Shown piece after piece: positions 9,332 through 42,105 of a DNA stretch of 45,609 nucleotides (positions are counted from its first letter, which is position 1; the number at the start of each line of letters is the position of its first letter). The stretch comes from a phage. The translations under genes and the position numbers were made by a program. The stretch is from NCBI GenBank assembly GCA_030873995.1, contig GCA_030873995.1_4701.1; one strand, 5' to 3'. Under the pieces are notes generated by a model that did no database searches, was not told the origin of the DNA, and was given only the letters and a program-made list of their open reading frames with translations.

Positions 9332-10056
9332 TGGCAGTAATGGCAACAGTAGGATCAAGCCTAGCCAGTATGTTCTCCAGTAGTGCAGGTGCTGCGGCTG
9401 CTAGTAGTGCTGCTGGTAGTGCCGCCGCTGGGAGTGGTGGTGTGCTTGGCTCTGTCGGAAGTTTCTTAGGTGGAAGCTCTGCTGGCTTTTCTAATGCAGG
9501 TTTGTTGTCTGCTGGACTACAAGGCTTAAACTTACTAGGCGGCCTATTCGGTGGACGAGATACCGCTAAGGCTATGCAGAAAGCACAAGAAGAAGAGTGG
9601 AGACAAAGGCTAGAAGCCACACGTGAAGCCTATTCTTCTGTGGCAAATGCAGAACGGTCTGCTGCAAAGCAATATCATTCTGACTTCCTTAATAATCAAA
9701 TTTCACTGATGCAGCAACGAGCGCAAGTTGCAGTAATGGCAGGTGCTACTGGAACAGGTGGTAGCTCCATCACATCCATGCTCAATGATTTGACGGCAGA
9801 AGGCGGTCGTAATCAGTCAACCATTATAGATAATTATGAGAATCAGCAAATCAGCTTTGCCAACCAGTTGAAGTCTATTCAACGCAGTGGACAGATGCAG
9901 ATGCGAACGTTTGACAAACCTTCCGCTTTGGGTACTTTGGTGAAAGGTATACCAAGCCTTGCATCTTCTTATGTCACCGGAAGTAAAGCAGGTATGGCGC
10001 TTGGCAAGGCTATCACTGAGTCTCGTACTTATTCATCAGGAACTAGAGGAGTTTAA
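9331..10056 (+). CDS. internal virion protein (gp14-like)
   Basis: 241 aa, Gly/Ala/Ser-rich N-terminus; first of three ejection-protein genes after tail tube B. Confidence 0.55.
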   Translation: MAVMATVGSSLASMFSSSAGAAAASSAAGSAAAGSGGVLGSVGSFLGGSSAGFSNAGLLSAGLQGLNLLGGLFGGRDTAKAMQKAQEEEWRQRLEATREAYSSVANAERSAAKQYHSDFLNNQISLMQQRAQVAVMAGATGTGGSSITSMLNDLTAEGGRNQSTIIDNYENQQISFANQLKSIQRSGQMQMRTFDKPSALGTLVKGIPSLASSYVTGSKAGMALGKAITESRTYSSGTRGV

Positions 10057-12999
10057 ATGGCAATTGAACGTCAAGCTGTACAAGGTTTAGAAAGAGTACA
10101 GTCAAGGGGTGCGCCAATGCCTATGTCTTTCACACCACGACAAGTGAGTATCTCAGGGGGCGCTGATGCCTCCGGTAGTAGATTTTTGGAAGACTTAGTA
10201 AACGCCGCAAGTAGTGTGGCTGATGTCACTACTGCTATCCTTAATCAGCAAGTAGAAGACGATAAGGTTCGCCAGATGGATAGGGCTTTGTCTGGCATGA
10301 TGCCTTCTGAGGATGCCACGGTAGGCGGTGCTCGTGCTCATATGCTGGTTAGTTTACAAAATGATGTAATCGCACAGACAACTGCGCTACAAGCAGAAGC
10401 ACAGCGATTTCAAGGTAGTGACGAGGATTGGGAAAACTATGTAGTTCAATCTCGTAATGAGGTACAAAATAGGTTATGGCAAAGTTATCCAGAGCTTCGT
10501 GGTGACAAAGATTCTATGAGGCTTGTCACTAACGCGTTCATGGAGCAGCAACCTAGAATTACTGCAACTAGAGCAGAGGCTAAACTTCGTCAAGAAGAAG
10601 AAGCACGAATGCAATCTATGCAGTCTCGTATTATCATGGCTACAAGGGACGTAGCGCCAGATGCCACTGGTGCAGCTCTTATCCAGCTACAAAAAGAAGC
10701 ACTGGCGATGGGTCTTAGTAAACCTGAGTTTGATCAAATGGTTGCTAAGATTGCATCTGAAAGAGCGGCAGTAGGAGATGATAGTCTTATTCAGGGAACC
10801 AAGGCATTGGTGGATGATAAGGGTGTCTCTTTGTATGACCGTGTTGGTGCTTTGCAAACTGGAGAAATTCAAGCTAACAGAACTTGGGCTGCTCAGAATC
10901 AGGTTGCCCTCTTCGAGAAGAAAGATGCAGCTATAAAGGCATTCGATGCAGGGCAACTTACTCGCGAAGAGTTACTTCAGGTGATGCAGAATCACAATGA
11001 ATTGACTGGTGGCACTGCTTGGTCTGATAGCGAGATCAAGGCTATCTTCGATAGGCAAGCTAAGGTTAATGCAGAGAAAGCAAAGCTAGAAGATCTTATT
11101 GCACGAGGTGAATCTGGGTCGCCTTTAGGCTTACAGGACATTAGTAAGGATGACAGAAAGACATATGCTGAAGCCTTAGTTAGTACCTACACTAAGCTGG
11201 CAGAAGATGAAATTGCCCGTACTGGTGCAACGGGAGAACAGGCTGAAGCTATTCGCGGTAGGTATGAGCAGATGCGTTATCTTAAATTGGGTCAACAGCT
11301 TATTGAAGACCCGATCATTAAGGAAAGGTATTCGTCGCTTATGCAGCTATCCTCTGCCAACCTCAAGGATATGAATGTTGAACCTGAAGCACTGCAAACT
11401 ATCATGCGAGCACGTGATTCTATTCCAGAGGATGCACGTCGTGCTGTTATGGGAGACAAAGAATATGCCTTTGTTGAGAACTATGACTTAGCAACTCGCA
11501 TGGGGTATAACACAGGTCAAGCTATTGAGTTTGCACAGAATGCCTCTCGCGGCGAGAAATTACAAGGTTCTGTGCTCAAAGAACTTAATGATGATGTAGA
11601 TGGAGTAGTTAGTGACATTGCAGGAGGCAGCTGGCTCACTTTTGGTGATAACATGAGTGAAATGGGACGTGACATTATGATGGAGGAGGCAAGTACAATT
11701 GCTAGAGCAATGAAGGTTGCAGGCCATAATAATGACACTATTAAGCGTCACCTTAAATCCTACCTTACAAGCCAGTATACACAATTATCAGAAGGTTTCT
11801 TTACTCAAGGTGTTCTTGTAAAAGGAGACATTCGTACGTTAGGAGATACTATAGGAGTAAACCAAGGAGACGTCCCAATTACTCTCCGTCAGTACCTAGA
11901 TAATAACAAACAAGCCCTGCTAGATGCATCAGGTGGGTTAGAGGAAGGCGACCTATATTTTGATGTAGATGCGAAGCGCGGCCTCTTTACTATACGTGCA
12001 GGCTCTGGTCGTGTGCCTGTTACACAGGCAATGCCTTTGTCTGAAATCAAAGGGCAATCCTTGCTTAAGCAACGGTATGATGCAGAGGTTAAAGCACGTG
12101 ATGAAGGGCGTAAGAACTTTGAAGCACAACAAATGCGAATGTGGGGCGCAGGTGGCTACCAAGCACAACCACCTGCAAAGACTACAGCCAAAACTGTAGG
12201 CTCACGTGGGATTGCTGACTTCTTAATGTCACCTGCCTTTGCATCAGGCGAGAATCTACCAGCAAACTTTGAGTTCGGATATAAGAGAAATAATATGGAC
12301 TTCTACAATTATGTAGCCAAGATGGAGAATAATGCCAATGTAGGTTTTGACCGAGTAGCTGGTGTTTATACACCATACAAAGATGCACATGGTCAGTCTG
12401 TAGGGTACGGTCACTTCCTTACTACTGAAGAGAAGAAGAACGGATACATTATGATTGGTACAGAGAAAGTGCCATTCACTCCGGGACAATCTCAATTAAC
12501 ACCAGAACGAGCCATGCGCCTTCTACAGCAAGACTTGAAGAGTCATGTGCCAAGTACTTCAGGATGGGCTGTTCCCTTCGAAGAGATGCACCCAGGTGTT
12601 CAGCGTGGCCTTATGGACTTGTCCTATAATTTAGGAAAAGGCGGGATCCAGAATGCTCCTAAGGCATACGCTGCATTTAAGGCTGGCAAGTTTACTGATG
12701 GCTTCATCGAGATGCTATCTACTGCATCTACTGAAGGCAAGCGCAGCACTGGATTGTTAGTTCGTAGGGCGGAAGCTTATAACCTTGCACAGAGTGGTGG
12801 TGCTATCCCTAAGATTAGTGAAGTGGAGACACGAGCAGATGGATCTATGTATGTGAAGTTTGCAGGACAGATGTCAGAGGCTTTCGTAAATAAATCAATC
12901 TACAATCAGATTGGTAAGGATGGGTGGATGCAAGTGTATCCTCCAAAGCAAGGTGCACTTGCACCTAACACTCAGATTGGTAGAATCAAACTGAGCTAG
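10057..12999 (+). CDS. internal virion protein (gp15-like) with C-terminal T4-lysozyme-like (GH24) domain
   Basis: 980 aa; region GQSVGYGHFLTTEE...GVQRGLMDLSYNLGKGG aligns to the T4 lysozyme core as recalled. Confidence 0.7.
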   Translation: MAIERQAVQGLERVQSRGAPMPMSFTPRQVSISGGADASGSRFLEDLVNAASSVADVTTAILNQQVEDDKVRQMDRALSGMMPSEDATVGGARAHMLVSLQNDVIAQTTALQAEAQRFQGSDEDWENYVVQSRNEVQNRLWQSYPELRGDKDSMRLVTNAFMEQQPRITATRAEAKLRQEEEARMQSMQSRIIMATRDVAPDATGAALIQLQKEALAMGLSKPEFDQMVAKIASERAAVGDDSLIQGTKALVDDKGVSLYDRVGALQTGEIQANRTWAAQNQVALFEKKDAAIKAFDAGQLTREELLQVMQNHNELTGGTAWSDSEIKAIFDRQAKVNAEKAKLEDLIARGESGSPLGLQDISKDDRKTYAEALVSTYTKLAEDEIARTGATGEQAEAIRGRYEQMRYLKLGQQLIEDPIIKERYSSLMQLSSANLKDMNVEPEALQTIMRARDSIPEDARRAVMGDKEYAFVENYDLATRMGYNTGQAIEFAQNASRGEKLQGSVLKELNDDVDGVVSDIAGGSWLTFGDNMSEMGRDIMMEEASTIARAMKVAGHNNDTIKRHLKSYLTSQYTQLSEGFFTQGVLVKGDIRTLGDTIGVNQGDVPITLRQYLDNNKQALLDASGGLEEGDLYFDVDAKRGLFTIRAGSGRVPVTQAMPLSEIKGQSLLKQRYDAEVKARDEGRKNFEAQQMRMWGAGGYQAQPPAKTTAKTVGSRGIADFLMSPAFASGENLPANFEFGYKRNNMDFYNYVAKMENNANVGFDRVAGVYTPYKDAHGQSVGYGHFLTTEEKKNGYIMIGTEKVPFTPGQSQLTPERAMRLLQQDLKSHVPSTSGWAVPFEEMHPGVQRGLMDLSYNLGKGGIQNAPKAYAAFKAGKFTDGFIEMLSTASTEGKRSTGLLVRRAEAYNLAQSGGAIPKISEVETRADGSMYVKFAGQMSEAFVNKSIYNQIGKDGWMQVYPPKQGALAPNTQIGRIKLS

Positions 13000-13002
13000 T
13001 GT

Positions 13003-13048
13003 TATACTCAAGGTTTGTCTCACATGTGAGACATGCCTTTATGAATGA
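13003..13048 (+). promoter_or_regulatory. RNase III-type processing site candidate
   Basis: GTTATACTCAAGG - extended hairpin around palindrome 13019..13034 - CCTTTATGAAT; same flanks recur at 39984..40021. Confidence 0.45.
13019..13034 (+). repeat. 16-bp perfect palindrome GTCTCACATGTGAGAC (copy 1)
   Basis: Read directly; flanks extend the stem. Confidence 0.9.
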
Positions 13049-13066
13049 CATTAATTAGGAGGTAAC

Positions 13067-16000
13067 ATGGTTGATAGTATTAACCAAAATTGGGTGGCGG
13101 TGACTCAACGCAAGTTACCGCCTACCTTCTCTCAAGTTGCTGAAGCAGAGCGTAAGGCCGAAGCACAGAGAGCTAATGACAAAGTATTCCAAACAGCCAT
13201 AGAGAGTGAGTGGGCTTTGTATGGTGGACAACGTGCCTATGAACGCCACACTACAGAGTTTGCTGAACAAGAAGGTTATGAAGTACCTGAATCAACTAAG
13301 GATGAACTATCCAAGTTGTATGGGTATGAAATAGCGCAAGACATAGTCAAGAATGTGAAGTCTCCAGAAGAGTTGCAATTCCGTATGTCTAATGCTGCTG
13401 CGGATAAAGACAGAGCAGACATCTTAGCACGTAATGGTTTCACAGGTTTCAGCGCACAGATTGCTGCTGGTATTCTTGACCCTGTAGGTTGGGCGGCTTC
13501 TCTAGTAGCTGCACCTGTAGCTGGTGCTGTCAAAGTAGGTCGTCTAGGTAGGATTATCAAGACGGCTGCCTTATCTGGTGCTGAAAATGCTGCATTAGAA
13601 GCTGTGCTTGCACAAGGTGATTACCAGCGAGGTGTCGATGATGTACTGGCTGCTGCCGGGTTTGGTATGATTATGGGCGGTACTATTGGCGCTGCAACTA
13701 GGGAACGCATAGCCAGTGCTGGTTCTCGTACAGCGGCAGAGAGAGCAGAGGCTGTATTTGATGACTTGGACACCGTAGTAAAAGGTGCTGATGAGTTTGA
13801 CTCGTCTGCTGCTCGTGCTGTACGTGAGGCCATGGAGTATGACGCGTATATGGCAGCACGTAATTATGAACCACTTCGTGCAAGAGAGGTGGATGCAGAT
13901 ATGGCAATTCTATCTCACACAGACAACTTGAAAGCCAATGCGTCGGTAAGGATGAGTGCTAGTGAGAAAGGACTACTGAAGAAACAGATACGCCAACTGG
14001 AAGCAGAAGCAGCCACACTTAAGGGGAAGAAGATAGATGCTGTAGCAGAGGCTGCCGCCGCTAAGGGTGCACCTAAATCTGCTGCGGACAGATTGGATTT
14101 AGATGTTCAGAAGAAAGCACTGGCACGTAGATTCGATGAACCACTTGCTGATTTACAAGCGCGTCTTGATGAGTTGAATGCCAAGTTATCTCGTGCGAAC
14201 AATGTAGGTAAGGCTAAGGAGGAGCTTAAGAGATTCTCATCGCTGTCCCGTGAAGATCAAATAAAGGAACTAGGTTTAGACGCACCAATGCGTAAGGTGG
14301 AGATGACCCGTGCTGTACGAGATGCAGTAGCTGCAATCCGTGCCGAACGTAAGAAGACACCTACCGAGATACATGCTGAACAAGCTGCAGAAGAGGTAAT
14401 CAAGCAAAAGGCAGATGACTCTATTGGTGCTAAACGTGTTGAAGGTTCAGAGATTGCAGGCGAGCAGTTTGACTTATCTAAAAACATGGAAGAACTTATG
14501 GATGACTTGGCACGAGAAGCATATCAGTCAGAGGTGCGGCCTATTAATCTTAAGGGTCTAGGTTCAGTGTCTTCTGTGATTCTTAACTCAGAGAATCCTG
14601 TGTTCCGAGGTCTAGGTCTTCGTCTGCTTGAAAACGCTCAAGGTGGTGCATACCAAGGTAAGACAGCTTCTATCTTATCAGATGTGTATGGCAACCTTAT
14701 TCGTCATGCAGAACGTAACAGGTACAATGATGGTTTCTCTCAATTCATCAAAGATAACAACCTACGTGCGGTAGATTATCTTAACCCTGCAACGACACGG
14801 GATTTCAATAATCAGATTTATACAGCAATTGTTCGTGGCATACCAGAAGATACACCTCGTGGTGTTAAACTGGCAGCAGAAGGTATCGCTGATAAACTCA
14901 AGAAAGCACTTGAGATTCGTAAGCAAGCAGGAGAGCATGGATTCGAAGATATACAATCTGCTAAGGATTACATCCCTGTTATCTATGACGGTATCAAGGT
15001 TACTGAGGCAGTTAACAAATTGGGGAGTAGTGAGGCTGTTATTCACTTACTATCCAAAGGTTACCAGACAGGTAAGTACAAACTTGGCAAGAAAGCTGCG
15101 GATGCCCTAGCAAAAGTACAGTACATTCGTGCATCGGACTCCACCCTCTCTAGTCGTGTTGCATTCGATAGGGTGGTATCCCAGCAGCAGCAGGCTCAAT
15201 TGATTGAGGATCTGAAGAAAGCAGGGGTACCAGACCATATCATTGATAATTTCATTGAAGGTACTGAATTAGCAGAAATGGCTGAATCGGTATCCAATCG
15301 AGCTAAAGCTAGTATGGGTATTAATACGCAAGCCGAATATGGCGGTTTGAAGGTGCAGGATTTGCTTAATACAAACGTAGGGGAGCTAGCGGAGAACTAC
15401 GGCAAAGAGGCAGCGGGTGGTGCTGCATTGGCTGCTATGGGTTTCCCTACTCGCCAATCTGTGCTGAACGCAATAGATGCCGCAGAACGCGCAGGCCGCA
15501 ATATGGCGGGGTCAAATGCTAAGGCAATCAAACAGCTTAGGTCTGAGGCAGAAATGCTCAGAGATGCCGTTAAGTTAATTTACGGCAACACTATCGACGC
15601 CGACCCTAACTCTGGAATTGTCAGGGGTACTCGACGTGTCCGTGAGATTACAGGGTTGTTACGATTAGGCCAAATGGGCTTCGCTCAGATACCTGAACTG
15701 GCACGTGCAATCTCTAAGATGGGACTAGGGACTGTGCTGAAGTCTGTACCTGCCACTAAGTTCTTACGTTCGAGAGCGGCTCGTAAAGGTGGCACTGCTC
15801 AGGGTGAGTTGCTTGAACCTGAACTGCGAGAAATGGAGGAACTCTTAGGTTATATCGGGGAGGATAACTGGCTCACAGGGTGGAATGTCCGTCATGATGA
15901 GTTCGGAGAAACTGCGGATAACCTAGGTAAGCTGTCTGCTATTATTGATAACGGATTAGCTATGGGTAGTAGAATCAACACAATACTATCTGGTTTTAAA

Positions 16001-16870
16001 GCAGTACAAGGTGGCTCAGAGAAGATTATAGCTCGCTCTATCAATAAGCGACTAAAGCAACATTTGATGGGGGAGCGACAGTTACCCAAAGCAGATCTTG
16101 AAGAAGTTGGCCTAAGTGAAGATGTCATGAAGAGACTTAAGCGTCACTTTGATGATAACCCAATGTACGCTGATTACAAAGGTGAAAAAGTTCGTATGAT
16201 GAACTTTGATGCTATGGAGCCAGACCTGAGAGAGACAGTGGGTGTTGCTGTGCGAAGAATGTCAGGACGTCTTATTCAGCGTAACTTCATAGGAGATGAA
16301 GGTATCTGGATGAATAAATGGTGGGGCAAGGCATTGACCCAGTTTAAGTCATTCTCTATTGTCTCTATTGAGAAACAGCTAATCCATGATTTACGAGGAG
16401 ATAAGATTCAGGCTGCACAGATCCTTGCATGGTCTACCTTACTAGGCTATGCATCTTATGCACTACAGATGCAGATGCAAGCAATTGGTAGGGAGGACAG
16501 AGACAAGTTCTTGAGGGATAAGTTCGAGACACAGAATATCGCTATGGGTGTCTTTAATAAACTCCCACAAGTTGCAGGCTTCGGTCTTGCTGGTGATGCT
16601 TTGGCAACATTTGGCCTAATGCCAGACTCTATGATGCAAGCGCCTGGACGTATGGGGTTCCGTCAGCAAGGGTTTGGTGATTTGGTAGCAGGTGCTGGTG
16701 TAATCAGTGATACAGTTAATTTGTCACAAGCACTAGTTAAGTACGCCAACGGAGATGATGATGTCTCTACTCGGCAGTTGGTGGACAAGGTTCGTCGCCT
16801 TGTTCCTTTGGCAAATACTATTGGTGTAGGTCAGATGACTAAAGCCAGTGTAGACTTATTGGAGGATTGA
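13067..16870 (+). CDS. internal virion (core/ejection) protein, gp16-like
   Basis: 1267 aa, position and size as T7 gp16; AGGAGG RBS. Confidence 0.7.
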   Translation: MVDSINQNWVAVTQRKLPPTFSQVAEAERKAEAQRANDKVFQTAIESEWALYGGQRAYERHTTEFAEQEGYEVPESTKDELSKLYGYEIAQDIVKNVKSPEELQFRMSNAAADKDRADILARNGFTGFSAQIAAGILDPVGWAASLVAAPVAGAVKVGRLGRIIKTAALSGAENAALEAVLAQGDYQRGVDDVLAAAGFGMIMGGTIGAATRERIASAGSRTAAERAEAVFDDLDTVVKGADEFDSSAARAVREAMEYDAYMAARNYEPLRAREVDADMAILSHTDNLKANASVRMSASEKGLLKKQIRQLEAEAATLKGKKIDAVAEAAAAKGAPKSAADRLDLDVQKKALARRFDEPLADLQARLDELNAKLSRANNVGKAKEELKRFSSLSREDQIKELGLDAPMRKVEMTRAVRDAVAAIRAERKKTPTEIHAEQAAEEVIKQKADDSIGAKRVEGSEIAGEQFDLSKNMEELMDDLAREAYQSEVRPINLKGLGSVSSVILNSENPVFRGLGLRLLENAQGGAYQGKTASILSDVYGNLIRHAERNRYNDGFSQFIKDNNLRAVDYLNPATTRDFNNQIYTAIVRGIPEDTPRGVKLAAEGIADKLKKALEIRKQAGEHGFEDIQSAKDYIPVIYDGIKVTEAVNKLGSSEAVIHLLSKGYQTGKYKLGKKAADALAKVQYIRASDSTLSSRVAFDRVVSQQQQAQLIEDLKKAGVPDHIIDNFIEGTELAEMAESVSNRAKASMGINTQAEYGGLKVQDLLNTNVGELAENYGKEAAGGAALAAMGFPTRQSVLNAIDAAERAGRNMAGSNAKAIKQLRSEAEMLRDAVKLIYGNTIDADPNSGIVRGTRRVREITGLLRLGQMGFAQIPELARAISKMGLGTVLKSVPATKFLRSRAARKGGTAQGELLEPELREMEELLGYIGEDNWLTGWNVRHDEFGETADNLGKLSAIIDNGLAMGSRINTILSGFKAVQGGSEKIIARSINKRLKQHLMGERQLPKADLEEVGLSEDVMKRLKRHFDDNPMYADYKGEKVRMMNFDAMEPDLRETVGVAVRRMSGRLIQRNFIGDEGIWMNKWWGKALTQFKSFSIVSIEKQLIHDLRGDKIQAAQILAWSTLLGYASYALQMQMQAIGREDRDKFLRDKFETQNIAMGVFNKLPQVAGFGLAGDALATFGLMPDSMMQAPGRMGFRQQGFGDLVAGAGVISDTVNLSQALVKYANGDDDVSTRQLVDKVRRLVPLANTIGVGQMTKASVDLLED

Positions 16871-33565: not shown

Positions 33566-35554
33566 ATGGCTATTATTCAGAATGTACCGTGTCCTGCTTG
33601 CCAAAAGAACGGACATGATATTACTGGCAATCATTTAATGATCTTTGACGACGGGGCAGGGTACTGTAACCGTGGTCACTTCCATGATAACGGTAAACCT
33701 TATTACCACAAGCCGGAAGGTGGCATCGAGATAACCGAGTTACCTATTACTGGCAATATCAAATATACACCTTCTCAATTCAAAGAAATGGAGAAGGAAG
33801 GGAAGATAAGCGACCCTAAGCTACGCGCCATCGCACTTGGTGGTATGCGTATGAAAGACCGTTGGGAGGTTATGAATGAGCAAGAAAGGGCAGACCAAGA
33901 AGCAGAGTGGAAACTTGATGTTGAATGGTTCCTCACGCTTAAGCGTAAGAACCTTGTATCCCGTCACATTCGAGGTGACATCGCAGCAATGTACGATGTG
34001 CGCGTTGGACACGATGAAGAGGGAAGAGTCAACCGTCACTATTATCCACGATATGAAAAGGGTGTGTTTGTTGGAGCAAAATGCCGGACGTTGCCGAAGG
34101 ATTTTAAGTTCGGACACCTAGGTAAACTCTTTGGTATGCAAGACCTTTTCGGTATGAACACTTTGTCTCACGTGTTAGACAAGGGGAGACGAAAGGATTG
34201 CTTGCTTATTGTAGGCGGTGAACTTGATGCACTAGCAGCGCAGCAGATGCTCCTTGATTCTGCCAAAGGTACTAAGTGGGAAGGTCAGCCATACCATGTA
34301 TGGTCTGTCAATAAAGGTGAGTCTTGCCTTGAAGAGATAGTGCAAAACCGTGAGCACATAGCCCAATTCAAGAAGATTATATGGGGCTTTGATGGCGACG
34401 AGGTGGGGCAGAAGCAGAACCAACAAGCTGCTCGCCTGTTTCCTGGCAAATCCTACATCCTCGAATATCCATCTGGTTGCAAAGATGCTAACAAGGCATT
34501 GATGGCTGGCAAGGCTAAAGAGTTTGTAGATGCATGGTTTAATGCCAAGTCATCTGATGAAGTCTTTGGTAGCCAGATTAAATCTATCGCATCTCAAAGG
34601 GATAAGCTCAAGGCTGCACGTCCAGAGCAAGGACTATCATGGCCTTGGCCTAAGCTGAACAAGGTAACGCTAGGTATTCGTAAGAACCAACTTATCATTG
34701 TAGGCGCAGGCTCTGGTGTAGGTAAGACTGAGTTCCTTCGTGAAGTAGTTAAGCACCTCATTGAAGAACACGGTGAATCTGTAGGCATCATTTCTACAGA
34801 AGACCCGATGGTCAAGGTGTCCCGTGCTTTTATCGGCAAGTGGATTGATAAGCGTATTGAGTTACCGCCAACCAACGACCCGAAAGAAGATGGATACCGT
34901 GAGGTGTTCGACTACACCGAGGAAGAGGCTAACGCCGCCATTGATTATGTAGCTGATACAGGTAAGCTGTTTGTAGCTGACCTAGAGGGTGACTATTCGA
35001 TGGAAAAGGTAGAGCAAACTTGCCTAGAGTTTGAGGCTATGGGCATTTCTAATATCATCATTGATAACTTAACGGGGATTAAATTAGATGAGCGTGCTTT
35101 TGGTGGGAAGGTTGGTGCACTTGATGAATGCGTCAAGCGGATTGGTACTATCAAAGACCGACACCCGGTTACTATATTCCTTGTATCACACCTTACACGT
35201 CCTCCGGCAAACCGTACCCAACACGAAGAAGGTGGCGAGGTTATCCTTTCTGACTTCCGAGGTTCAGGCGCTATCGGATTCTGGGCATCTTACGCCTTGG
35301 GGATTGAGCGTAATACAAGAGCTGAAACGCTTGATGAACGGACTACCACGTACATCTCATGTGTCAAAGACCGCGACCAAGGTATCTACACTGGAACCAA
35401 GGTCATGCTTAAGGGTGACATTCAAACCGGACGTTTAATGGAACCACAAGCCCGTACTAAGTCATTTGATACAGGTGAAGCAAGGCAACAAGAAGTGCCG
35501 GATTTACCGGACACTATAGAAGAGACAACTTTTGACGATGAACAGGAGTTTTAA
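33566..35554 (+). CDS. DNA primase/helicase (gp4-like)
   Basis: 662 aa; N-terminal Cys4 zinc ribbon, Walker A GAGSGVGKT; acidic C-terminus ending DDEQEF. Confidence 0.9.
   Translation: MAIIQNVPCPACQKNGHDITGNHLMIFDDGAGYCNRGHFHDNGKPYYHKPEGGIEITELPITGNIKYTPSQFKEMEKEGKISDPKLRAIALGGMRMKDRWEVMNEQERADQEAEWKLDVEWFLTLKRKNLVSRHIRGDIAAMYDVRVGHDEEGRVNRHYYPRYEKGVFVGAKCRTLPKDFKFGHLGKLFGMQDLFGMNTLSHVLDKGRRKDCLLIVGGELDALAAQQMLLDSAKGTKWEGQPYHVWSVNKGESCLEEIVQNREHIAQFKKIIWGFDGDEVGQKQNQQAARLFPGKSYILEYPSGCKDANKALMAGKAKEFVDAWFNAKSSDEVFGSQIKSIASQRDKLKAARPEQGLSWPWPKLNKVTLGIRKNQLIIVGAGSGVGKTEFLREVVKHLIEEHGESVGIISTEDPMVKVSRAFIGKWIDKRIELPPTNDPKEDGYREVFDYTEEEANAAIDYVADTGKLFVADLEGDYSMEKVEQTCLEFEAMGISNIIIDNLTGIKLDERAFGGKVGALDECVKRIGTIKDRHPVTIFLVSHLTRPPANRTQHEEGGEVILSDFRGSGAIGFWASYALGIERNTRAETLDERTTTYISCVKDRDQGIYTGTKVMLKGDIQTGRLMEPQARTKSFDTGEARQQEVPDLPDTIEETTFDDEQEF
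35502..35524 (+). promoter_or_regulatory. phage-RNAP promoter embedded in the primase/helicase C-terminal coding tail
   Basis: ATTTACCGGACACTATAGAAGAG, encodes DLPDTIEE. Confidence 0.75.
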
Positions 35555-35715: not shown

Positions 35716-35732
35716 TGTATTTATCAGGGCTT

Positions 35733-35748
35733 GTCTCACATGTGAGAC
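35733..35748 (+). repeat. 16-bp perfect palindrome (copy 4), extended stem
   Basis: Read directly. Confidence 0.9.
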
Positions 35749-35787
35749 AGGCTCTTATTAAGTACATTAAATAACTGGAGATTGATT

Positions 35788-36471
35788 ATGTATAAATTAG
35801 TATTGAATGTAGGTGATTATGTTCGTAACATCAATGAAGCCTCACGTCGTTATCGTTGCCGTGGTGTAGTGGCTCGTGTAAGTGAGAACATGTATCATGT
35901 AGAATATGATGATGGTATTAAGGCTTCTTATCACAAGAAAACCGCACATAAATATCTTGAAAAGGTTGTAGAGGTAAACAATCAATGTAAGTGCATACAT
36001 GATGAGGTTTGCGATAAATGTGCTCGCCAGATGCTTAAGAATTTCCTAGCCCCTCTTTATTATGGTGCTGGTCCTCAAACACTAGCAGAGTACATGGCAG
36101 AAAAGAAAACCACACTCAAGAAAGAGCGTCGCAATGTAATCACTGGTAAGACTCAAAGTGGGATGATTAAGCAATGTGGCACTGCATTAGGTGTTACACA
36201 GTTCAATACTCGTGCATTGGGTAAATCCACAGGGCAAGCTATGGTGAAAATTGGTGAAGCTATGATGCACCCAAATGTGCCTGTGCGAATCTTGGATGTT
36301 GACCATGCAATCACAGAGCATGGCACACCACGGCGTGTAGCTAATAATCATTTCGCCGACACTATAGAAGGTATTATTCGTAAGCAAGGGTTGAAGGGTC
36401 TTCACATCTTAAATGGTGAAGAATTACTGTACCTACCTATCGTTACTGAAGAAACATACGTGAATATCTAA
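35788..36471 (+). CDS. hypothetical protein (227 aa)
   Basis: GGAG RBS before ATG 35788; Cys cluster CKCIHDEVCDKC; contains a degenerate promoter-like site. Confidence 0.55.
   Translation: MYKLVLNVGDYVRNINEASRRYRCRGVVARVSENMYHVEYDDGIKASYHKKTAHKYLEKVVEVNNQCKCIHDEVCDKCARQMLKNFLAPLYYGAGPQTLAEYMAEKKTTLKKERRNVITGKTQSGMIKQCGTALGVTQFNTRALGKSTGQAMVKIGEAMMHPNVPVRILDVDHAITEHGTPRRVANNHFADTIEGIIRKQGLKGLHILNGEELLYLPIVTEETYVNI
36350..36372 (+). promoter_or_regulatory. degenerate promoter-like site inside CDS 35788..36471
   Basis: ATTTCGCCGACACTATAGAAGGT; four mismatches at -13 to -10. Confidence 0.25.
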
Positions 36472-36700: not shown

Positions 36701-36866
36701 ACATAGTCTTAGAATGTTCGATGGTCATGAAGACCTGCAAGCCAAGATTACTAACCAAGCCTTCCTGTTCGCACAGTTAACTATGGCTGAGGCCAAGAAG
36801 AATAGTCTCACTCGTGAACAGGTTATCAAGGAAAGTGAAGTGAAACGTAAGATTCGCAGTCGATAA
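36690..36866 (+). CDS. small ORF (58 aa)
   Basis: Overlaps the upstream stop; followed by an extended hairpin; below track threshold. Confidence 0.3.
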   Translation: MQNKHSLRMFDGHEDLQAKITNQAFLFAQLTMAEAKKNSLTREQVIKESEVKRKIRSR

Positions 36867-36876
36867 GTCAAGGGTT

Positions 36877-36892
36877 GTCTCACGTGTGAGAC
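36877..36892 (+). repeat. 16-bp near-palindrome GTCTCACGTGTGAGAC (copy 5), extended stem
   Basis: Read directly. Confidence 0.9.
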
Positions 36893-36923
36893 AGCCTTTT
36901 ATCATGTTGATTGGAGGTGCATT

Positions 36924-37031
36924 ATGCCACGTGATTATGATTCTGATTGGGACTACTATGACTCAATGAATCCAAAACCAGAACGTTCAGATGATTACTA
37001 CGAAACAGAGGCAATGTATGAAAACTATTAA
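36924..37031 (+). CDS. small acidic Tyr/Asp-rich peptide (35 aa)
   Basis: GGAGGTG RBS; MPRDYDSDWDYYDS... Confidence 0.35.
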   Translation: MPRDYDSDWDYYDSMNPKPERSDDYYETEAMYENY

Positions 37032-37236
37032 AGTCAGTAAGGTTTGCTCTTGCGGTAAAGGTTATCGCAGTCGTATTGATGGTAAGTGTGGACATTGTAG
37101 GTCTAAGAAAGAGGCTGCTTTGTTTGACAAGTACCACAATGAATTAGCCTATAACTACCCACATCTAACACCTAATTCTTTATTAGGGCTTGGTTATAGG
37201 GCTAAATACTTTGGAGCAATCTATGAAATCAATTGA
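37018..37236 (+). CDS. small zinc-ribbon-like protein (72 aa)
   Basis: CSCG...CGHC motif; AGAGG RBS; overlaps the DNAP start. Confidence 0.45.
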   Translation: MKTIKVSKVCSCGKGYRSRIDGKCGHCRSKKEAALFDKYHNELAYNYPHLTPNSLLGLGYRAKYFGAIYEIN

Positions 37237-39769
37237 TTGGAAGAAGGAGGCAGAAGGTCGTATCCTCGTGATGGATGCGGAAGCTAAAGGACTCCTTGAC
37301 GCTATCCGATATGGACACCGTGAAGATGTGCATATCATTTGCTGCATGGATTTGCTTACTACCGAGGAGTTTCTCTTCTTTGACCCGTATGAGATGCGTG
37401 ACCCTGAAGCAAGAGAACGCCTGAAGGAATGGGAAGGTCATCAAGATGGAACCTTGGTTGACGGTGTTAACTTCCTGAAGCACTGTGAGGCTATTGTGTC
37501 GCAGAACTTCCTAGGGTATGACGGTCTTCTCTTTGAGAAAGCATTCCCTGATATTTGGAAAGGCTTTAACTATACCGAGAAGCGCGGTAAGGGCAGACTC
37601 CGTGCTGACCTGTGTCCGGTGCGAGTCATGGATACGCTGGTGATGAGTCGCCTGTTAAACCCCGATAGACGCCTTCCTCCGCAAGCATATGCCAAAGGTA
37701 TGGGTAACGTCGCCCCTCACTCAATTGAGGCGCACGGCATCCGTATAGGTCGCTATAAACCGGAGAACGAGGACTGGTCTAAACTAACTGACCACATGGT
37801 TCACCGTGTACGTGAGGACGTGGCGATTGGTCGTGACTTGTTCCTCTGGCTCTTTAACGGGGAATGGATGGAGCACAAACGCCGTGGCGTGAATAAACGC
37901 ACGGGCCTAGGCATTGAGACAGCCTTCCACATGGAGTCCATTGTGGCGCTGGAGATGAGCCGTCAGGCCGAGCGCGGGTTCCGTCTGGACATCGACAAGG
38001 CTTTGGCCCGATGCGAAGAATTGGACGCTAAGATTGATGAGACAGTCGCAGCGTTCCGCCCTCACATGCCTATGCGTATCAAGTCTAAACCTTTTAAACC
38101 GGAAGAAAAGAATGAAGTATGCCAACGCGCAAATGAGTATGGAGCTAGCAACAATATACCTACTGTCCTTGACCCCTCACACTTTCTTCATGCCGAGAGA
38201 CGAGGAGATCGCAAGACAGTATGGAGTGTCACTACTAAGTCTGGTGATTGGTCGGCTAGTGTCAAGAAAGACTTTCCTCACCTTAGAGGAAACCGTAATG
38301 ACACGCCAAGTATCAAGTGGATTGGTGCTTACTCGCCTGTTACTTTCGAAGAGATTCCCTTGGGTAACAGGGATACAGTTAAGCAAGTGCTCTATGATTA
38401 TGGATGGAAAGGTGTTGAATTTAACGATACCGAGCAAGCGCATCTCGATGAGTATGGCGTATTACCAAAACCTTGGAGTGGAAAGATAAATGAAAAGTCT
38501 CTTACTTTATGGCAAGAGAGAGCCGCACGTGAAGGTAAAACAGTACCCGATTGGTGCTTGGGTATCGCTGCATGGTACATACTCGTATCCCGTCGTGGTC
38601 AGATACTCAACCGTGGTGACGTTGAAGCCTTCAACGAGAAGGGAACGTGGCCCTCGCAGGCTGGTGTACGAAAGTGTCGCGGCCTTGTACCTGTAGCATT
38701 CAACAAGGAGCTAGGAATCAATGCGCAGCAATACTACGAAAGGTACGGATGCTGGCCTACGTCAGACAAGGATGACGGGGAGTGGCGTGTTCCAGCTGTT
38801 GCTATTAGCATTGGCACTTCTACGTTCCGTATGCGTCATCGTAACGTGGTTAATATTCCTGCCCGTGGCTTGTATCCTTTACGTGATTTATTCATAGCAG
38901 GTAAAGGCAAGCTAATCCTTGGTTGTGACGGTGCAGGTCTTGAACTGCGCGTCCTGTCTCACTTCATGAATGACCCTGAGTACCAAGAGATTGTATTGCA
39001 TGGTGACATCCATACACATAACCAGATGAAGGCTGGTCTTCCTAAGCGTGACATGGCGAAGACGTTTATATACGCTTTCCTCTATGGCTCTGGTATAGCC
39101 AACCTTGCAGCAGTATGTGGTGTTACCGAGGAAGAAATGAAGGAAGTTGTGGCAAGATTCGAGATTGAACTGCCGTCTCTTGCACGTCTTCGTGAGAATG
39201 TTATCGCACAAGGTAACAAGTTTGGCTACCTGCAAGCACCTGATGGGCATTGGGGTCGCATCCGCATGTCTGGTGGTGAACTTAAAGAGCACACGATGCT
39301 TAACGTATTACTCCAGATGACTGGCTCTTTGTGTATGAAATATGCATTAGTCAAGGCATTTGCAGTAATGCGCAAGGAAGGTGTAGCCTTGGATGCTATG
39401 GGAAATCCTTGTGGTGTGGCTAACGTGCATGATGAAATCCAGATGGAAGTTCCTGAAGAGGAGGTCTTGTATCTTAACTACGACCTACCTTTCACCTTAG
39501 ATGGGTTCGAAACAGAGAAGGCTGCCGTGCAAGCAGTGTTCGATGCAGAGGAGAAACGTGTTCATGTGGATTCTGAAGGACGTATGTGGTCTGCTGCAAA
39601 CCTCGTTAGTGTTGATGCTGATGCTGGTGTATTGCATTGCCAGCGCCGTTATCACCGTGCAGGTCATATCATTGCCGACGCCATGACTTGGGCAGGGCAG
39701 TATCTGAAGATGCGTTGCCCGATGGCAGGCGAATATAAGATTGGCGCAAGTTGGAAGGAAACACACTGA
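37223..39769 (+). CDS. DNA polymerase (family A, gp5-like) with 3'-5' exonuclease domain
   Basis: Exo motif VMDAEAKGL; pol motifs DGAGLELR, RDMAKTFIYAFLYGSG, VHDEIQ; start placed at RBS-supported ATG 37223. Confidence 0.9.
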   Translation: MKSIDWKKEAEGRILVMDAEAKGLLDAIRYGHREDVHIICCMDLLTTEEFLFFDPYEMRDPEARERLKEWEGHQDGTLVDGVNFLKHCEAIVSQNFLGYDGLLFEKAFPDIWKGFNYTEKRGKGRLRADLCPVRVMDTLVMSRLLNPDRRLPPQAYAKGMGNVAPHSIEAHGIRIGRYKPENEDWSKLTDHMVHRVREDVAIGRDLFLWLFNGEWMEHKRRGVNKRTGLGIETAFHMESIVALEMSRQAERGFRLDIDKALARCEELDAKIDETVAAFRPHMPMRIKSKPFKPEEKNEVCQRANEYGASNNIPTVLDPSHFLHAERRGDRKTVWSVTTKSGDWSASVKKDFPHLRGNRNDTPSIKWIGAYSPVTFEEIPLGNRDTVKQVLYDYGWKGVEFNDTEQAHLDEYGVLPKPWSGKINEKSLTLWQERAAREGKTVPDWCLGIAAWYILVSRRGQILNRGDVEAFNEKGTWPSQAGVRKCRGLVPVAFNKELGINAQQYYERYGCWPTSDKDDGEWRVPAVAISIGTSTFRMRHRNVVNIPARGLYPLRDLFIAGKGKLILGCDGAGLELRVLSHFMNDPEYQEIVLHGDIHTHNQMKAGLPKRDMAKTFIYAFLYGSGIANLAAVCGVTEEEMKEVVARFEIELPSLARLRENVIAQGNKFGYLQAPDGHWGRIRMSGGELKEHTMLNVLLQMTGSLCMKYALVKAFAVMRKEGVALDAMGNPCGVANVHDEIQMEVPEEEVLYLNYDLPFTLDGFETEKAAVQAVFDAEEKRVHVDSEGRMWSAANLVSVDADAGVLHCQRRYHRAGHIIADAMTWAGQYLKMRCPMAGEYKIGASWKETH

Positions 39770-40593: not shown

Positions 40594-41400
40594 ATGGCAC
40601 GTGGTGATTTTGATTTTGGTGCTCAGGTTACTAAAGCTGAAGGTAAGGTTTTTAAGAACCCTGAAGTTGGTGATCATGAAGCAGTAATCTCTGGCATCAT
40701 TCATGTGGGTTCCTTCCAAGATATCTTTAAGAAAGGTAATACCACTGAAGTTAAGAAGCCAGCAAACTTTGTTCTTGTTAAGATTGTACTGATGGGTGAC
40801 GATGACAAGAACGAAGATGATTCTCGCATGGAACAATGGATGGCTGTTCCTCTGAAGTCTGGTGATAAGGCAACACTGACTAAGTTCCTGAATGCAGTTG
40901 ACCCCAAAGAATTGCTTGGTGGCTTCGATGATTTTATCGGGGAATGCCTGACTGCAACTATGGTTGGCTCTGGTGACAAGAATGACGATGGTTCATTCAA
41001 GTATGTTAACTGGAAAGGATTCGGTGGTATGCCTGACAAGCTTAAGAAACTTGTCATTGCTCAGGTTGAAGAAGAGGGTCTGTCTATGACAGGTCACATC
41101 ACCTTCGACAAGCTGACCAAAGAAATCCTTGATGACATTCCTGCTAACTTGGTACGCCAATACTTCCTTAATGAAACACCTCGTGGTAAGAACCTGTCTG
41201 TTGCTGGTTCTCACGTAGAAGCAATCATTAAAGCTGCTCGTGAAGAAGACCCAGAGTGGAAGAAGGCTAAGAAGAAAGACGAGGAAGATGCTACCCCAGC
41301 TAATCGTAAATCTCTGGATACTGGTGAGTCTGTTCCGCAGGAAGTACCTGAAGCAGAAGATACTCCTGCACCGGAGATGGATGAGGACGCGGAATACTAA
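40594..41400 (+). CDS. hypothetical protein with acidic C-terminal tail (possible ssDNA-binding protein)
   Basis: 268 aa; own promoter 40515; AGGAG RBS; C-terminus EMDEDAEY resembles gp2.5-type acidic tails. Confidence 0.55.
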   Translation: MARGDFDFGAQVTKAEGKVFKNPEVGDHEAVISGIIHVGSFQDIFKKGNTTEVKKPANFVLVKIVLMGDDDKNEDDSRMEQWMAVPLKSGDKATLTKFLNAVDPKELLGGFDDFIGECLTATMVGSGDKNDDGSFKYVNWKGFGGMPDKLKKLVIAQVEEEGLSMTGHITFDKLTKEILDDIPANLVRQYFLNETPRGKNLSVAGSHVEAIIKAAREEDPEWKKAKKKDEEDATPANRKSLDTGESVPQEVPEAEDTPAPEMDEDAEY

Positions 41401-41733: not shown

Positions 41734-42105
41734 ATGTTCAAGATTGAAACTATCGTAAACCGTGTTGTTAAAGGTGCTGCTCTGGTATCCGTTGAGTCTT
41801 TCATTATCGTCGATGAAGCTGATCAACTGGTAGCTGGTACTAAGGCTTACGATACCCGTGAAGAAGCTCAGGCTAAGATTGACAGCATGGGTAACTTCGC
41901 TGCTGGTCTGGAGTTCGCTCGTGCTTGCTTCCCTGAGCAGGCTGACAAAGCTCAGATTGGTAAGGCTAATATCGTAGCTGAATATCTGGATTGGGTTGCT
42001 GCTGGTAAACCAGTGAAAGAAGTTAAGGCTGCTGAAGAAGCTGAAGCTCCAGCAGAAGAAGTAGCTGCACCGGAAACTCCGGTAAGCGAAGAGGAAGAAT
42101 TTTGA
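41734..42105 (+). CDS. hypothetical protein with acidic C-terminal tail ending EEEEF
   Basis: 123 aa; own promoter 41661; AAAGGAG RBS. Confidence 0.6.
   Translation: MFKIETIVNRVVKGAALVSVESFIIVDEADQLVAGTKAYDTREEAQAKIDSMGNFAAGLEFARACFPEQADKAQIGKANIVAEYLDWVAAGKPVKEVKAAEEAEAPAEEVAAPETPVSEEEEF

What the first reader, a model, noticed from the sequence alone, without database searches (positions are those of the whole stretch)
36924..37236. Acidic Tyr/Asp-rich 35-aa peptide and zinc-ribbon protein just upstream of the DNA polymerase
The peptide (MPRDYDSDWDYYDSM...) has a strong RBS and sits where T7 encodes small host-interference proteins. The overlapping 72-aa ORF has a CxC...CxxC zinc ribbon. 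Both are candidate host-factor inhibitors.
Basis: inference. Interest (0 to 1): 0.35.

Follow-up and report, generated by a model that had tools for sequence, protein, structure and literature searches.

The report
Two small accessory genes before polymerase
Both small open reading frames are real, conserved genes of K1E/SP6-like phages, already annotated elsewhere as hypothetical proteins gp11.5 and gp12; close relatives lack one or both, so they are optional extras, and their function is still unknown.

Summary
The window is a Vectrevirus (K1E/SP6-like coliphage). The 35-aa acidic peptide (36924-37031) and the 72-aa CxC...CxxC protein (37018-37236) are orthologues of K1E gp11.5 and gp12, which are annotated as hypothetical proteins and placed in function-unknown PHROGs.

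Both are under purifying selection. pN/pS is about 0.3 for gp11.5, with an invariant DSDW motif, and 0.13 for the gp12 zinc ribbon. Each is translationally coupled by a 14-nt overlap, gp11.5 to gp12 and gp12 to the DNA polymerase.

Both are optional. In relatives the slot in front of the polymerase holds nothing, gp11.5 alone, gp11.5 plus gp12, gp11.5 plus an HNH endonuclease, or another small acidic ORF. gp12 is bracketed by a 19-nt direct repeat, and relatives without gp12 carry a single copy of it.

The gp12 ribbon defines a small family of about 66 clusters that includes phage N4 gp13. It has no structural or functional match. Its helical half evolves fast.

No target can be identified. 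My best guess is that these are binding modulators: gp11.5 as an acidic decoy peptide and gp12 as a basic zinc-ribbon adaptor. They are not core replisome parts. The T7 comparison is positional only. Interest is modest.

The parts
36859..36915 (+). Conserved two-tier RNA hairpin (lower stem, internal loop, 13-bp upper stem at 36870-36899) between gp11 and the gp11.5 ribosome-binding site. It resembles an RNase III site or a terminator and marks the 5' edge of the variable slot.
   Evidence: MFE -28.8 kcal/mol, z = -3.5. The same architecture occurs in all SP6-like loci examined, including those without gp11.5. 23 pairs are predicted and 9 show compensatory changes.
36913..36918 (+). Shine-Dalgarno sequence GGAGGT of gp11.5, 5 nt before the ATG.
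   Evidence: Read from the sequence. It is conserved in relatives. In loci that lack gp11.5 the same SD drives the polymerase directly.
36924..37031 (+). gp11.5: a 35-aa acidic, Tyr/Trp-rich peptide (orthologue of K1E gp11.5, phrog_15473). It has an N-terminal motif (Y/F/W)DSDW(D/N)(Y/F), a Pro/Lys linker and an acidic/aromatic C-terminal patch.
   Evidence: The AF2 model has low confidence (pLDDT 58), consistent with disorder or folding on binding.
37011..37029 (+). Direct repeat, copy 1 (GCAATGTATGAAAACTATT). It spans the end of gp11.5 and the start of gp12.
   Evidence: Genomes without gp12 keep a single copy of this type fused to the polymerase start.
37018..37236 (+). gp12: a 72-aa basic 4-Cys zinc-ribbon protein (orthologue of K1E gp12, phrog_12821). 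The conserved ribbon is residues 1-29, the variable helical half residues 30-64, and the C-terminal strand overlaps the polymerase RBS and start.
37216..37234 (+). Direct repeat, copy 2 (GCAATCTATGAAATCAATT; 16 of 19 identical to copy 1). It spans the end of gp12 and the start of the polymerase.
37223..39769 (+). DNA polymerase (K1E gp13 orthologue), translationally coupled to the preceding ORF.

Best explanation
The region holds two real protein-coding accessory genes in a variable cassette slot. The slot lies between a conserved RNA hairpin and the DNA polymerase gene of a K1E/SP6-like phage. The genes are probably expressed on the polymerase mRNA, and each start codon lies 11 nt before the previous stop, so they are translationally coupled (shown by sequence).

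gp11.5 is a 4.5-kDa peptide with net charge -8 that is probably disordered. Its conserved DSDW(D/N)(Y/F) motif and its acidic/aromatic patch most likely bind a basic surface on another protein, one that normally binds nucleic acid or an acidic tail. That would make it a decoy or competitor (inferred).

gp12 is a protein with net charge +8. It has a strongly conserved CxC...CxxC zinc ribbon shared with phage N4 gp13 and with proteins in the replication modules of other podophages. It also has a rapidly diverging two-helix half. It most likely acts as a small zinc-ribbon adaptor: the ribbon contacts a conserved partner or nucleic acid, and the variable half sets specificity (inferred).

Close relatives replicate without one or both genes. 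I therefore think they modulate host, defence or replication factors and are not core replisome parts. The targets are unknown.
For: - Coding and selection: (pN/pS 0.29-0.36 for gp11.5; 0.13 for the gp12 ribbon against 0.63 for the helical half). The SD and start are conserved.
- Annotated orthologues and PHROG membership.
- Coupling geometry.
- Optional nature and slot variability: gp12 is precisely absent in AAPEc6, whose flanks are 98% identical. gp11.5 is absent in L016-L018. An HNH gene sits in the same slot in L014, L015 and Sem4. Alleles of gp12 that are 56-65% identical sit in the same slot next to a 95% identical polymerase.
- Family breadth: 66 clusters, with invariant C10 C12 G15 S18 D21 C24 C27 R28, including N4 gp13 and Drulisvirus VLC5_14.
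- Structure: the gp12 AF2 model is confident (pLDDT 89) and the peptide model is not (pLDDT 58).
- Charges.
Against: - There is no experimental or homology-based functional evidence for either protein. Pfam, NCBIfam, PADLOC, PDB sequence and Foldseek searches are all empty.
- Part of the C-terminal conservation of both ORFs is forced by overlap with the next gene's RBS and start.
- SP6 has replaced the DSDW half of the peptide, so that motif is not universally required.
- One gp12 cluster has C12S.
- Translation has not been shown directly.
Confidence: 0.45

Rival explanations
1. gp11.5 acts on the phage's own replisome. As a free-standing analogue of the acidic C-terminal tails of T7-type helicase and ssDNA-binding protein, it would bind basic patches on the DNA polymerase, or the DNA-binding cleft of the phage SSB. 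Being made in step with the polymerase through translational coupling, it would tune replisome assembly.
For: - Its position is immediately 5' of the polymerase, with an overlap, in nearly all SP6-like loci.
- A small acidic ORF sits in this position even in more distant lineages (L019, L021, L026, L033).
- Replication-region proteins in this window carry acidic tails that end in an aromatic residue: helicase ...DDEQEF, the 268-aa protein ...MDEDAEY and the 123-aa protein ...SEEEEF.
- There is a local resemblance to the T7 gp2.5 tail: PRDEES-WDEDDEES against PRDYDSDWDYYDS.
Against: - The resemblance is marginal. 106 of 2000 composition-preserving shuffles score as well. There is nothing for the gp4 tail, and BLASTP finds no alignment.
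- L016-L018 have a 93-95% identical polymerase N-terminus without the peptide.
- The last residue (Y, C or F) is dictated by polymerase codon 4 and is not selected independently. Other lineages end in N or E.
Confidence: 0.2
2. gp11.5 is mainly a translational-coupling leader ORF. Its strong SD loads ribosomes that terminate and reinitiate at the weakly signalled downstream start (gp12 or the polymerase). The peptide itself would have little or no function.
For: - The start-before-stop overlap is invariant.
- The downstream SD (GAGG/GGAG) lies inside the upstream ORF.
- Where the peptide is absent, the same strong SD drives the polymerase directly.
- The C-terminal residues are constrained by the overlap.
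Against: - pN/pS is 0.29 in codons 1-16, which lie far from the overlap.
- DSDW is invariant despite synonymous changes (GAT/GAC; TCT/TCA/TCG).
- Variation is biased to the third codon position, across lineages whose polymerase N-terminus is only 77-83% identical.
Confidence: 0.15
3. gp12 is a selfish or neutral passenger cassette. It would be moved in and out of the slot by recombination at the 19-nt repeats, like the HNH homing endonucleases found at the same site, and would give the phage no specific benefit.
For: - Presence and absence are patchy among near-identical genomes.
- A nearly identical gp12 (93%) occurs in the Salmonella phage UAB_Phi78.
- Flanking direct repeats are present.
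- HNH genes occupy the same slot.
Against: - Purifying selection on the ribbon is strong (pN/pS 0.13).
- Eight positions are invariant across about 23 distant homologues.
- The family recurs in early or replication regions of unrelated podophages, including N4.
- The protein has no nuclease or recombinase features.
Confidence: 0.1
4. One or both ORFs are chance reading frames and are not translated.
For: Short ORFs are abundant in the six-frame list. There are no direct translation data.
Against: Conservation, codon-position pattern, SD sequences, PHROG families and a confident fold for gp12 all argue against this.
Confidence: 0.02

Closest known systems
Escherichia phage K1E gp11.5 (YP_424984) and gp12 (YP_424985); PHROGs phrog_15473 and phrog_12821
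   Same: They are orthologues. They have the same lengths (35 and 72 aa), the same order and overlaps in front of the DNA polymerase, 89% and 97% identity, and full-length PHROG matches.
   Different: Nothing substantive differs. These entries are annotated only as hypothetical proteins and no function has been tested.
Phage N4 gp13 (61 aa, early region) and Drulisvirus VLC5_14 (74 aa, between primase and helicase)
   Same: They share the CxCG(K/R)G(Y/F)xSxxDxxCxxCR(T/S)K zinc ribbon. All are small stand-alone basic proteins in early or replication regions of virulent podophages.
   Different: The C-terminal halves are unrelated and the genomic neighbours differ. N4 gp13 overlaps the DUF4326 gene gp12. 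These proteins are also uncharacterised.
Acidic C-terminal tails of T7 gp2.5 (SSB) and gp4 (helicase-primase), which bind basic patches of T7 DNA polymerase (function from established T7 literature, from my own knowledge)
   Same: Both are acidic segments rich in Asp, Glu and Ser, with Trp and a terminal aromatic residue, in a replication-module context. There is a local resemblance to the gp2.5 tail.
   Different: gp11.5 is a free peptide and not a tail. The similarity is barely above composition (p about 0.05) and is absent for gp4. The terminal aromatic residue is not independently conserved.
T7 genes 4.3, 4.5 and 4.7 (small non-essential genes between the helicase and polymerase genes)
   Same: They occupy the same relative position, between the primase/helicase and DNA polymerase genes, and are small and non-essential.
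   Different: There is no sequence similarity. The T7 proteins are basic (net +4 to +6) and 70-135 aa long. T7 has no zinc ribbon there.
Small acidic DNA-mimic inhibitors of phages (T7 Ocr; T7 gp5.9, 52 aa) (properties from my own knowledge)
   Same: They are very acidic small phage proteins that could occupy DNA-binding surfaces.
   Different: gp11.5 matches no known family in any library searched. At 35 aa it is shorter, has no confident fold and is unusually rich in tyrosine.

Membership tests
K1E gp11.5 family (phrog_15473) | Full-length profile match of a roughly 35-aa protein | tested here: met
   E = 8.1e-22, residues 1-35 against profile positions 1-35 of 35. 89% identity to K1E gp11.5.
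K1E gp11.5 family (phrog_15473) | Position directly 5' of gp12 or the DNA polymerase, with a start/stop overlap | tested here: met
K1E gp12 family (phrog_12821) | Full-length profile match of a roughly 72-aa protein | tested here: met
   E = 3.4e-48, residues 1-72 of 72. 97% identity to K1E gp12.
Four-cysteine zinc ribbon | Two Cys pairs (CxC and CxxC) conserved across homologues | tested here: met
   C10, C12, C24 and C27 are invariant in 23 homologues. One cluster has C12S.
Four-cysteine zinc ribbon | Zinc-ribbon fold in a structural model, and similarity to solved ribbons | tested here: inconclusive
   The AF2 model is confident (pLDDT 89). Residues 7-29, which carry the four Cys, are modelled almost without regular secondary structure. 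Foldseek against the PDB gives no match with E < 6. A profile search of the PDB gives only E = 0.17, to the TiaS ribbon.
Four-cysteine zinc ribbon | Bound zinc ion | not testable with these tools
   Needs metal analysis of purified protein.
T7-type acidic C-terminal replisome tails (functional analogy) | Order-specific sequence similarity to the gp2.5 or gp4 tails | tested here: inconclusive
   gp2.5 tail: score 37 against a shuffle mean of 27.6; 106 of 2000 shuffles score as high or higher. gp4 tail: no better than shuffles. BLASTP finds no alignment.
T7-type acidic C-terminal replisome tails (functional analogy) | The acidic segment is the C-terminus of a replisome protein and ends in an essential aromatic residue | tested here: not met
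   gp11.5 is a separate ORF. Its last residue varies (Y, F, C, N, E), and in the K1E group it is set by the overlapping polymerase codon.
T7-type acidic C-terminal replisome tails (functional analogy) | Binds the DNA polymerase | not testable with these tools
   No complex prediction or experiment was available.
T7 gp4.3 / gp4.5 / gp4.7 | Sequence homology | tested here: not met
   tblastn of both ORFs against T7 9000-16600 finds only noise (best E = 0.1, on the wrong strand). The net charge of gp11.5 is opposite to theirs.
Known anti-defence or defence proteins (PADLOC-DB) | Profile match | tested here: not met
   No family at E <= 1 for either protein.

The most novel reading that the evidence does not exclude
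The slot in front of the polymerase is a counter-defence or host-takeover cassette site. On this reading gp11.5 would be one of the smallest phage decoys known: a 35-aa acidic, Tyr/Trp-rich mimic of ssDNA or of SSB-type acidic tails that blocks a host DNA-binding or SSB-tail-binding factor. gp12 would found a new family of zinc-ribbon adaptors (with N4 gp13) whose hypervariable helical half tracks a host target. That family is contextually tied to the predicted viral NAD/ADP-ribose counter-defence network, through fusions to SLOG/DprA-like domains and adjacency to DUF4326 (PMC9503650).
Probability: 0.15. Interest if true: 0.6.

Novelty: already known. Interest (0 to 1): 0.27.

Why it matters
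As found, this is a routine result: two annotated hypothetical genes of a well-sampled phage genus. It still has practical value.

Nature supplies near-isogenic phages with and without gp12, such as EEc2 and AAPEc6, and with and without gp11.5. Host-range and defence-panel comparisons are therefore cheap ways to find a phenotype.

A function for the gp12 ribbon would also annotate N4 gp13 and about 66 protein clusters in therapeutic Klebsiella, E. coli and Pseudomonas podophages. A target for the 35-aa peptide would add a very small, synthesisable inhibitor.

Tried and rejected
- Function by homology. Pfam, NCBIfam and PADLOC gave nothing, and PHROGs gave only function-unknown families.
- Function by structure. 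The gp12 AF2 model is good, but Foldseek against the PDB has no hit below E = 6, and BFVD returns only uncharacterised phage proteins. PDB sequence and profile searches gave only insignificant hits: TiaS ribbon E = 0.17 and kexin E = 0.21. The peptide model has low confidence.
- Wider relatives of the peptide. A padded 41-aa query found only two 35-aa clusters.
- Homology to T7 acidic tails or to T7 genes 4.3-4.7. Rejected or marginal.
- Literature. Only a gene table lists gp11.5 and gp12 as unknown (PMC4837284). Nothing was found on N4 gp13, and the two phage-essentiality preprints do not mention SP6-like phages.
- Rfam. No family matches anywhere in the window.
- The simple terminator scan did not flag the 36870 hairpin, because its U-run is interrupted.
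- A programmed frameshift fusing the peptide to the polymerase was considered and dropped. In gp12+ phages the downstream frame is gp12, not the polymerase, and I saw no slippery site.
- The 81-aa start at 36991 for gp12 was rejected. It is not conserved (L010 has only the 72-aa start), and it lacks an SD.

Full report
**Identity of the window**

The 1.3 kb around the finding is 100% identical to Escherichia phages EEc2, EEc4 and vB-Eco-KMB14, and 91% identical to K1E. 85 phage records match it, almost all Vectrevirus (Autographiviridae, Molineuxvirinae, the K1E/SP6-like group). In EEc2 and K1E the two ORFs of the finding are annotated CDSs. In K1E they are gene 11.5 (35 aa) and gene 12 (72 aa), lying between gp11 and the DNA polymerase gp13. 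All are listed as hypothetical proteins.

**Observation check**

- The peptide ORF runs from ATG 36924 to TAA 37031. GGAGGT lies 5 nt upstream.
- The zinc-ribbon ORF starts at ATG 37018, with GAGG 6 nt upstream, and ends at TGA 37236.
- The polymerase starts at ATG 37223.
- Each downstream ATG therefore lies 11 nt before the upstream stop codon. This is the usual geometry of translational coupling.
- gp11.5 has 11 Asp/Glu, 3 Lys/Arg, 7 Tyr and 1 Trp (pI 4.05). gp12 has 13 Lys/Arg and 5 Asp/Glu (pI 9.5), with Cys at 10, 12, 24 and 27.

The description is accurate.

**Are they real genes?**

tblastn finds the peptide in 71 phage records, and full-length gp12 in 35.

I fetched 31 IMG/VR loci through the polymerase N-terminus, plus GenBank loci, and obtained 18 distinct gp11.5 alleles.

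- Variable columns by codon position are 21/21/33 of 38.
- pN/pS is 0.36 overall, and 0.29 for codons 1-16, which do not overlap another gene.
- The core DSDW is invariant while its codons vary synonymously.
- The motif (Y/F/W)DSDW(D/N)(Y/F) persists in lineages whose polymerase N-terminus is only 77-83% identical (L022, L024, L032).

For gp12, pN/pS differs along the protein:

| Region | pN/pS | Note |
|---|---|---|
| Ribbon, codons 1-29 | 0.13 | Strong purifying selection |
| Helical half, codons 30-64 | 0.63 | Relaxed or diversifying |
| Last 8 codons | 0.49 | pS only 0.06, because they also encode the polymerase RBS and start |

Both are therefore protein-coding genes under selection. Part of the C-terminal conservation of each ORF (EAMYENY in gp11.5, FGAIYEIN in gp12) is imposed by the overlapping downstream start. 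The last residue of gp11.5 (Y, C or F) simply follows polymerase codon 4.

**A variable slot**

Upstream of gp11.5 lies a two-tier hairpin (36859-36915). It folds at -28.8 kcal/mol (z = -3.5) and is present in every SP6-like locus examined. Of its 23 predicted pairs, 9 show compensatory changes.

Between this hairpin and the polymerase, relatives carry:

- nothing, so that the strong SD drives the polymerase directly (L016-L018);
- gp11.5 alone (AAPEc6, VEc3, UTI89UKE2 and many IMG/VR loci);
- gp11.5 plus gp12 (this window, K1E, CrRp3, UAB_Phi78);
- gp11.5 plus a divergent gp12 allele, 56-65% identical (Mt1B1_P10, L041-L043);
- gp11.5 plus an HNH endonuclease (L014, L015, Sem4);
- gp11.5 plus an unrelated Cys-rich ORF (L024);
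- a different small acidic ORF (SP6-type 53 aa that keeps only the C-terminal half; L021; L026/L033).

gp12 is bracketed by a 19-nt direct repeat, at 37011-37029 and 37216-37234, with 16 of 19 positions identical. Genomes without gp12 have one copy of the first type, fused to the polymerase start: MKTIDW instead of MKSIDW. AAPEc6 lacks gp12 although its flanks are 98% identical to the window. Gain or loss is therefore recent, and it is consistent with recombination between the repeats.

Compared with L041, nucleotide identity is:

- 93-100% through gp11.5 and the ribbon;
- 45-50% in 37088-37207;
- 92% again at the polymerase junction.

The polymerase protein is 95% identical. So gp12 is a mosaic: a constant ribbon joined to a swappable or fast-evolving helical half.

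**What gp12 is related to**

- A profile search of 1.84 billion representative proteins found only 66 clusters. Most are 48-96 aa stand-alone proteins.
- Across 23 of them, C10, C12, G15, S18, D21, C24, C27 and R28 are invariant.
- Members include phage N4 gp13 (61 aa, early region, overlapping the DUF4326 gene gp12) and Drulisvirus VLC5_14 (between primase and helicase). tblastn also finds the ribbon in LIMElight, Pseudomonas phi-2 and G7C-like phages.
- Three members carry a C-terminal SLOG/DprA-like domain. These Pfam hits are below threshold.
- DUF4326 and viral SLOG domains have been proposed to process NAD/ADP-ribose-derived molecules (PMC9503650). This is only a weak contextual lead.
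- AlphaFold2 gives a confident model (pLDDT 89) with an N-terminal strand, a cysteine-bearing region with little regular structure, two helices and a C-terminal strand.
- Foldseek finds nothing in the PDB, and only uncharacterised phage proteins in BFVD. PDB profile, Pfam, NCBIfam and PADLOC searches are empty.

**What gp11.5 resembles**

- It belongs to phrog_15473 (function unknown).
- It has only two 90% clusters in the 5.8-billion-protein collection, and no PDB relative.
- Its AF2 model has low confidence (pLDDT 58) with two tentative short helices. This fits a peptide that is disordered or folds on binding.
- Its N-terminus looks like the T7 gp2.5 acidic tail (PRDEES-WDEDDEES against PRDYDSDWDYYDS). 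In addition, the helicase, a 268-aa protein and a 123-aa protein of this window end in acidic tails with a terminal Phe or Tyr.
- The resemblance is marginal. 106 of 2000 composition-preserving shuffles score as well, the gp4 tail gives nothing, and BLASTP reports no alignment.
- It therefore stands as a mechanistic lead ("works like an acidic decoy") and not as evidence of family membership.

**The T7 comparison**

T7 genes 4.3, 4.5 and 4.7 occupy the same relative position and are annotated as non-essential. They are basic proteins of 70-135 aa, and the T7 segment 9000-16600 shows no similarity to either ORF. The analogy is positional only.

**Mechanism**

What is shown:
- coding potential under selection;
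- strong or adequate SDs;
- coupled overlaps;
- accessory status;
- a conserved 4-Cys ribbon with a variable half.

What is inferred:
- gp11.5 binds a basic surface as a decoy;
- gp12 is a zinc-ribbon adaptor that binds nucleic acid or protein;
- both modulate host, defence or replication factors.

Close relatives with nearly identical polymerases lack one or both genes. I therefore rate a core replisome role as less likely than a conditional, host-dependent role, but the target is unknown. The rivals that remain open are a replisome-tuning role for gp11.5, a coupling-only role for gp11.5, and a neutral or selfish cassette status for gp12. Chance ORFs are effectively excluded.

**Verdict**

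- The genes themselves are already annotated in public records as hypothetical proteins.
- This analysis adds four things: the cassette-slot structure with its 19-nt repeats; the definition of the gp12 ribbon family, which includes N4 gp13; the mosaic evolution of gp12; and the conserved hairpin.
- Interest is modest.

Noticed in passing
window 36859-36915 (upper stem 36870-36899); also 35720-35761 and 13010-13039: A family of sequence-related hairpins (core TTGTCTCAC..GTGAGACA), each just upstream of an SD and start codon. The one before gp11.5 is a two-tier structure with 9 of 23 pairs showing compensatory changes across SP6-like phages. It is present even where gp11.5 is absent. It looks like a T7-type RNase III processing site or a phage-RNAP terminator. 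Rfam has no match.
   Followed up: partly
window 37011-37029 and 37216-37234: A 19-nt direct repeat (16 of 19 identical) brackets gp12. Phages without gp12 have one hybrid copy, so the polymerase N-terminus reads MKTIDW instead of MKSIDW. This is consistent with cassette gain or loss by recombination between the repeats.
   Followed up: yes
L014 2035-2514, L015 2035-2514, L039 (Sem4) 1271-1756: In some Vectrevirus genomes an HNH homing endonuclease gene (159-161 aa) occupies exactly the slot that gp12 occupies here. It overlaps the end of gp11.5 and the polymerase start.
   Followed up: partly
window 37088-37207 compared with L041: The helical half of gp12 is only 45-50% identical at DNA level between phages whose flanking DNA is 92-100% identical. 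This is a sharp mosaic boundary inside a 72-codon gene.
   Followed up: partly
window 33566-35554, 40594-41400, 41734-42105: Three replication-region proteins end in acidic tails with a terminal aromatic residue: helicase ...TTFDDEQEF, a 268-aa protein ...PEMDEDAEY and a 123-aa protein ...PVSEEEEF. The 268-aa protein (phrog_862, function unknown) may be the unannotated gp2.5-like ssDNA-binding protein.
   Followed up: no
window 4852, 18550, 20655, 22317, 33205, 33389, 35505, 36353, 40055, 40518, 41664, 45273 (+ strand): SP6-type phage promoter-like sequences (TACNGGACACTATAG and variants). 19 matches were found against 4.2 expected. The site at 35505 precedes gp9.5/gp10, and a weaker one at 36353 lies inside gp10. 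None lies between the hairpin and gp11.5.
   Followed up: no
L024 2286-2504: One SP6-like metagenomic phage carries a different Cys-rich basic ORF (..KICILCKGEWDGVRCKCGHYRGRK..; CxxC...CxC) in the gp12 slot. It may be a distant or convergent zinc-binding analogue.
   Followed up: no
L035 (phage N4) 1146-1692: N4 gp13, a gp12-like zinc ribbon, overlaps the 3' end of N4 gp12, a DUF4326 protein. Three gp12-like ribbons elsewhere are fused to SLOG/DprA-like domains. This is a weak contextual link to predicted NAD/ADP-ribose-processing phage proteins.
   Followed up: partly
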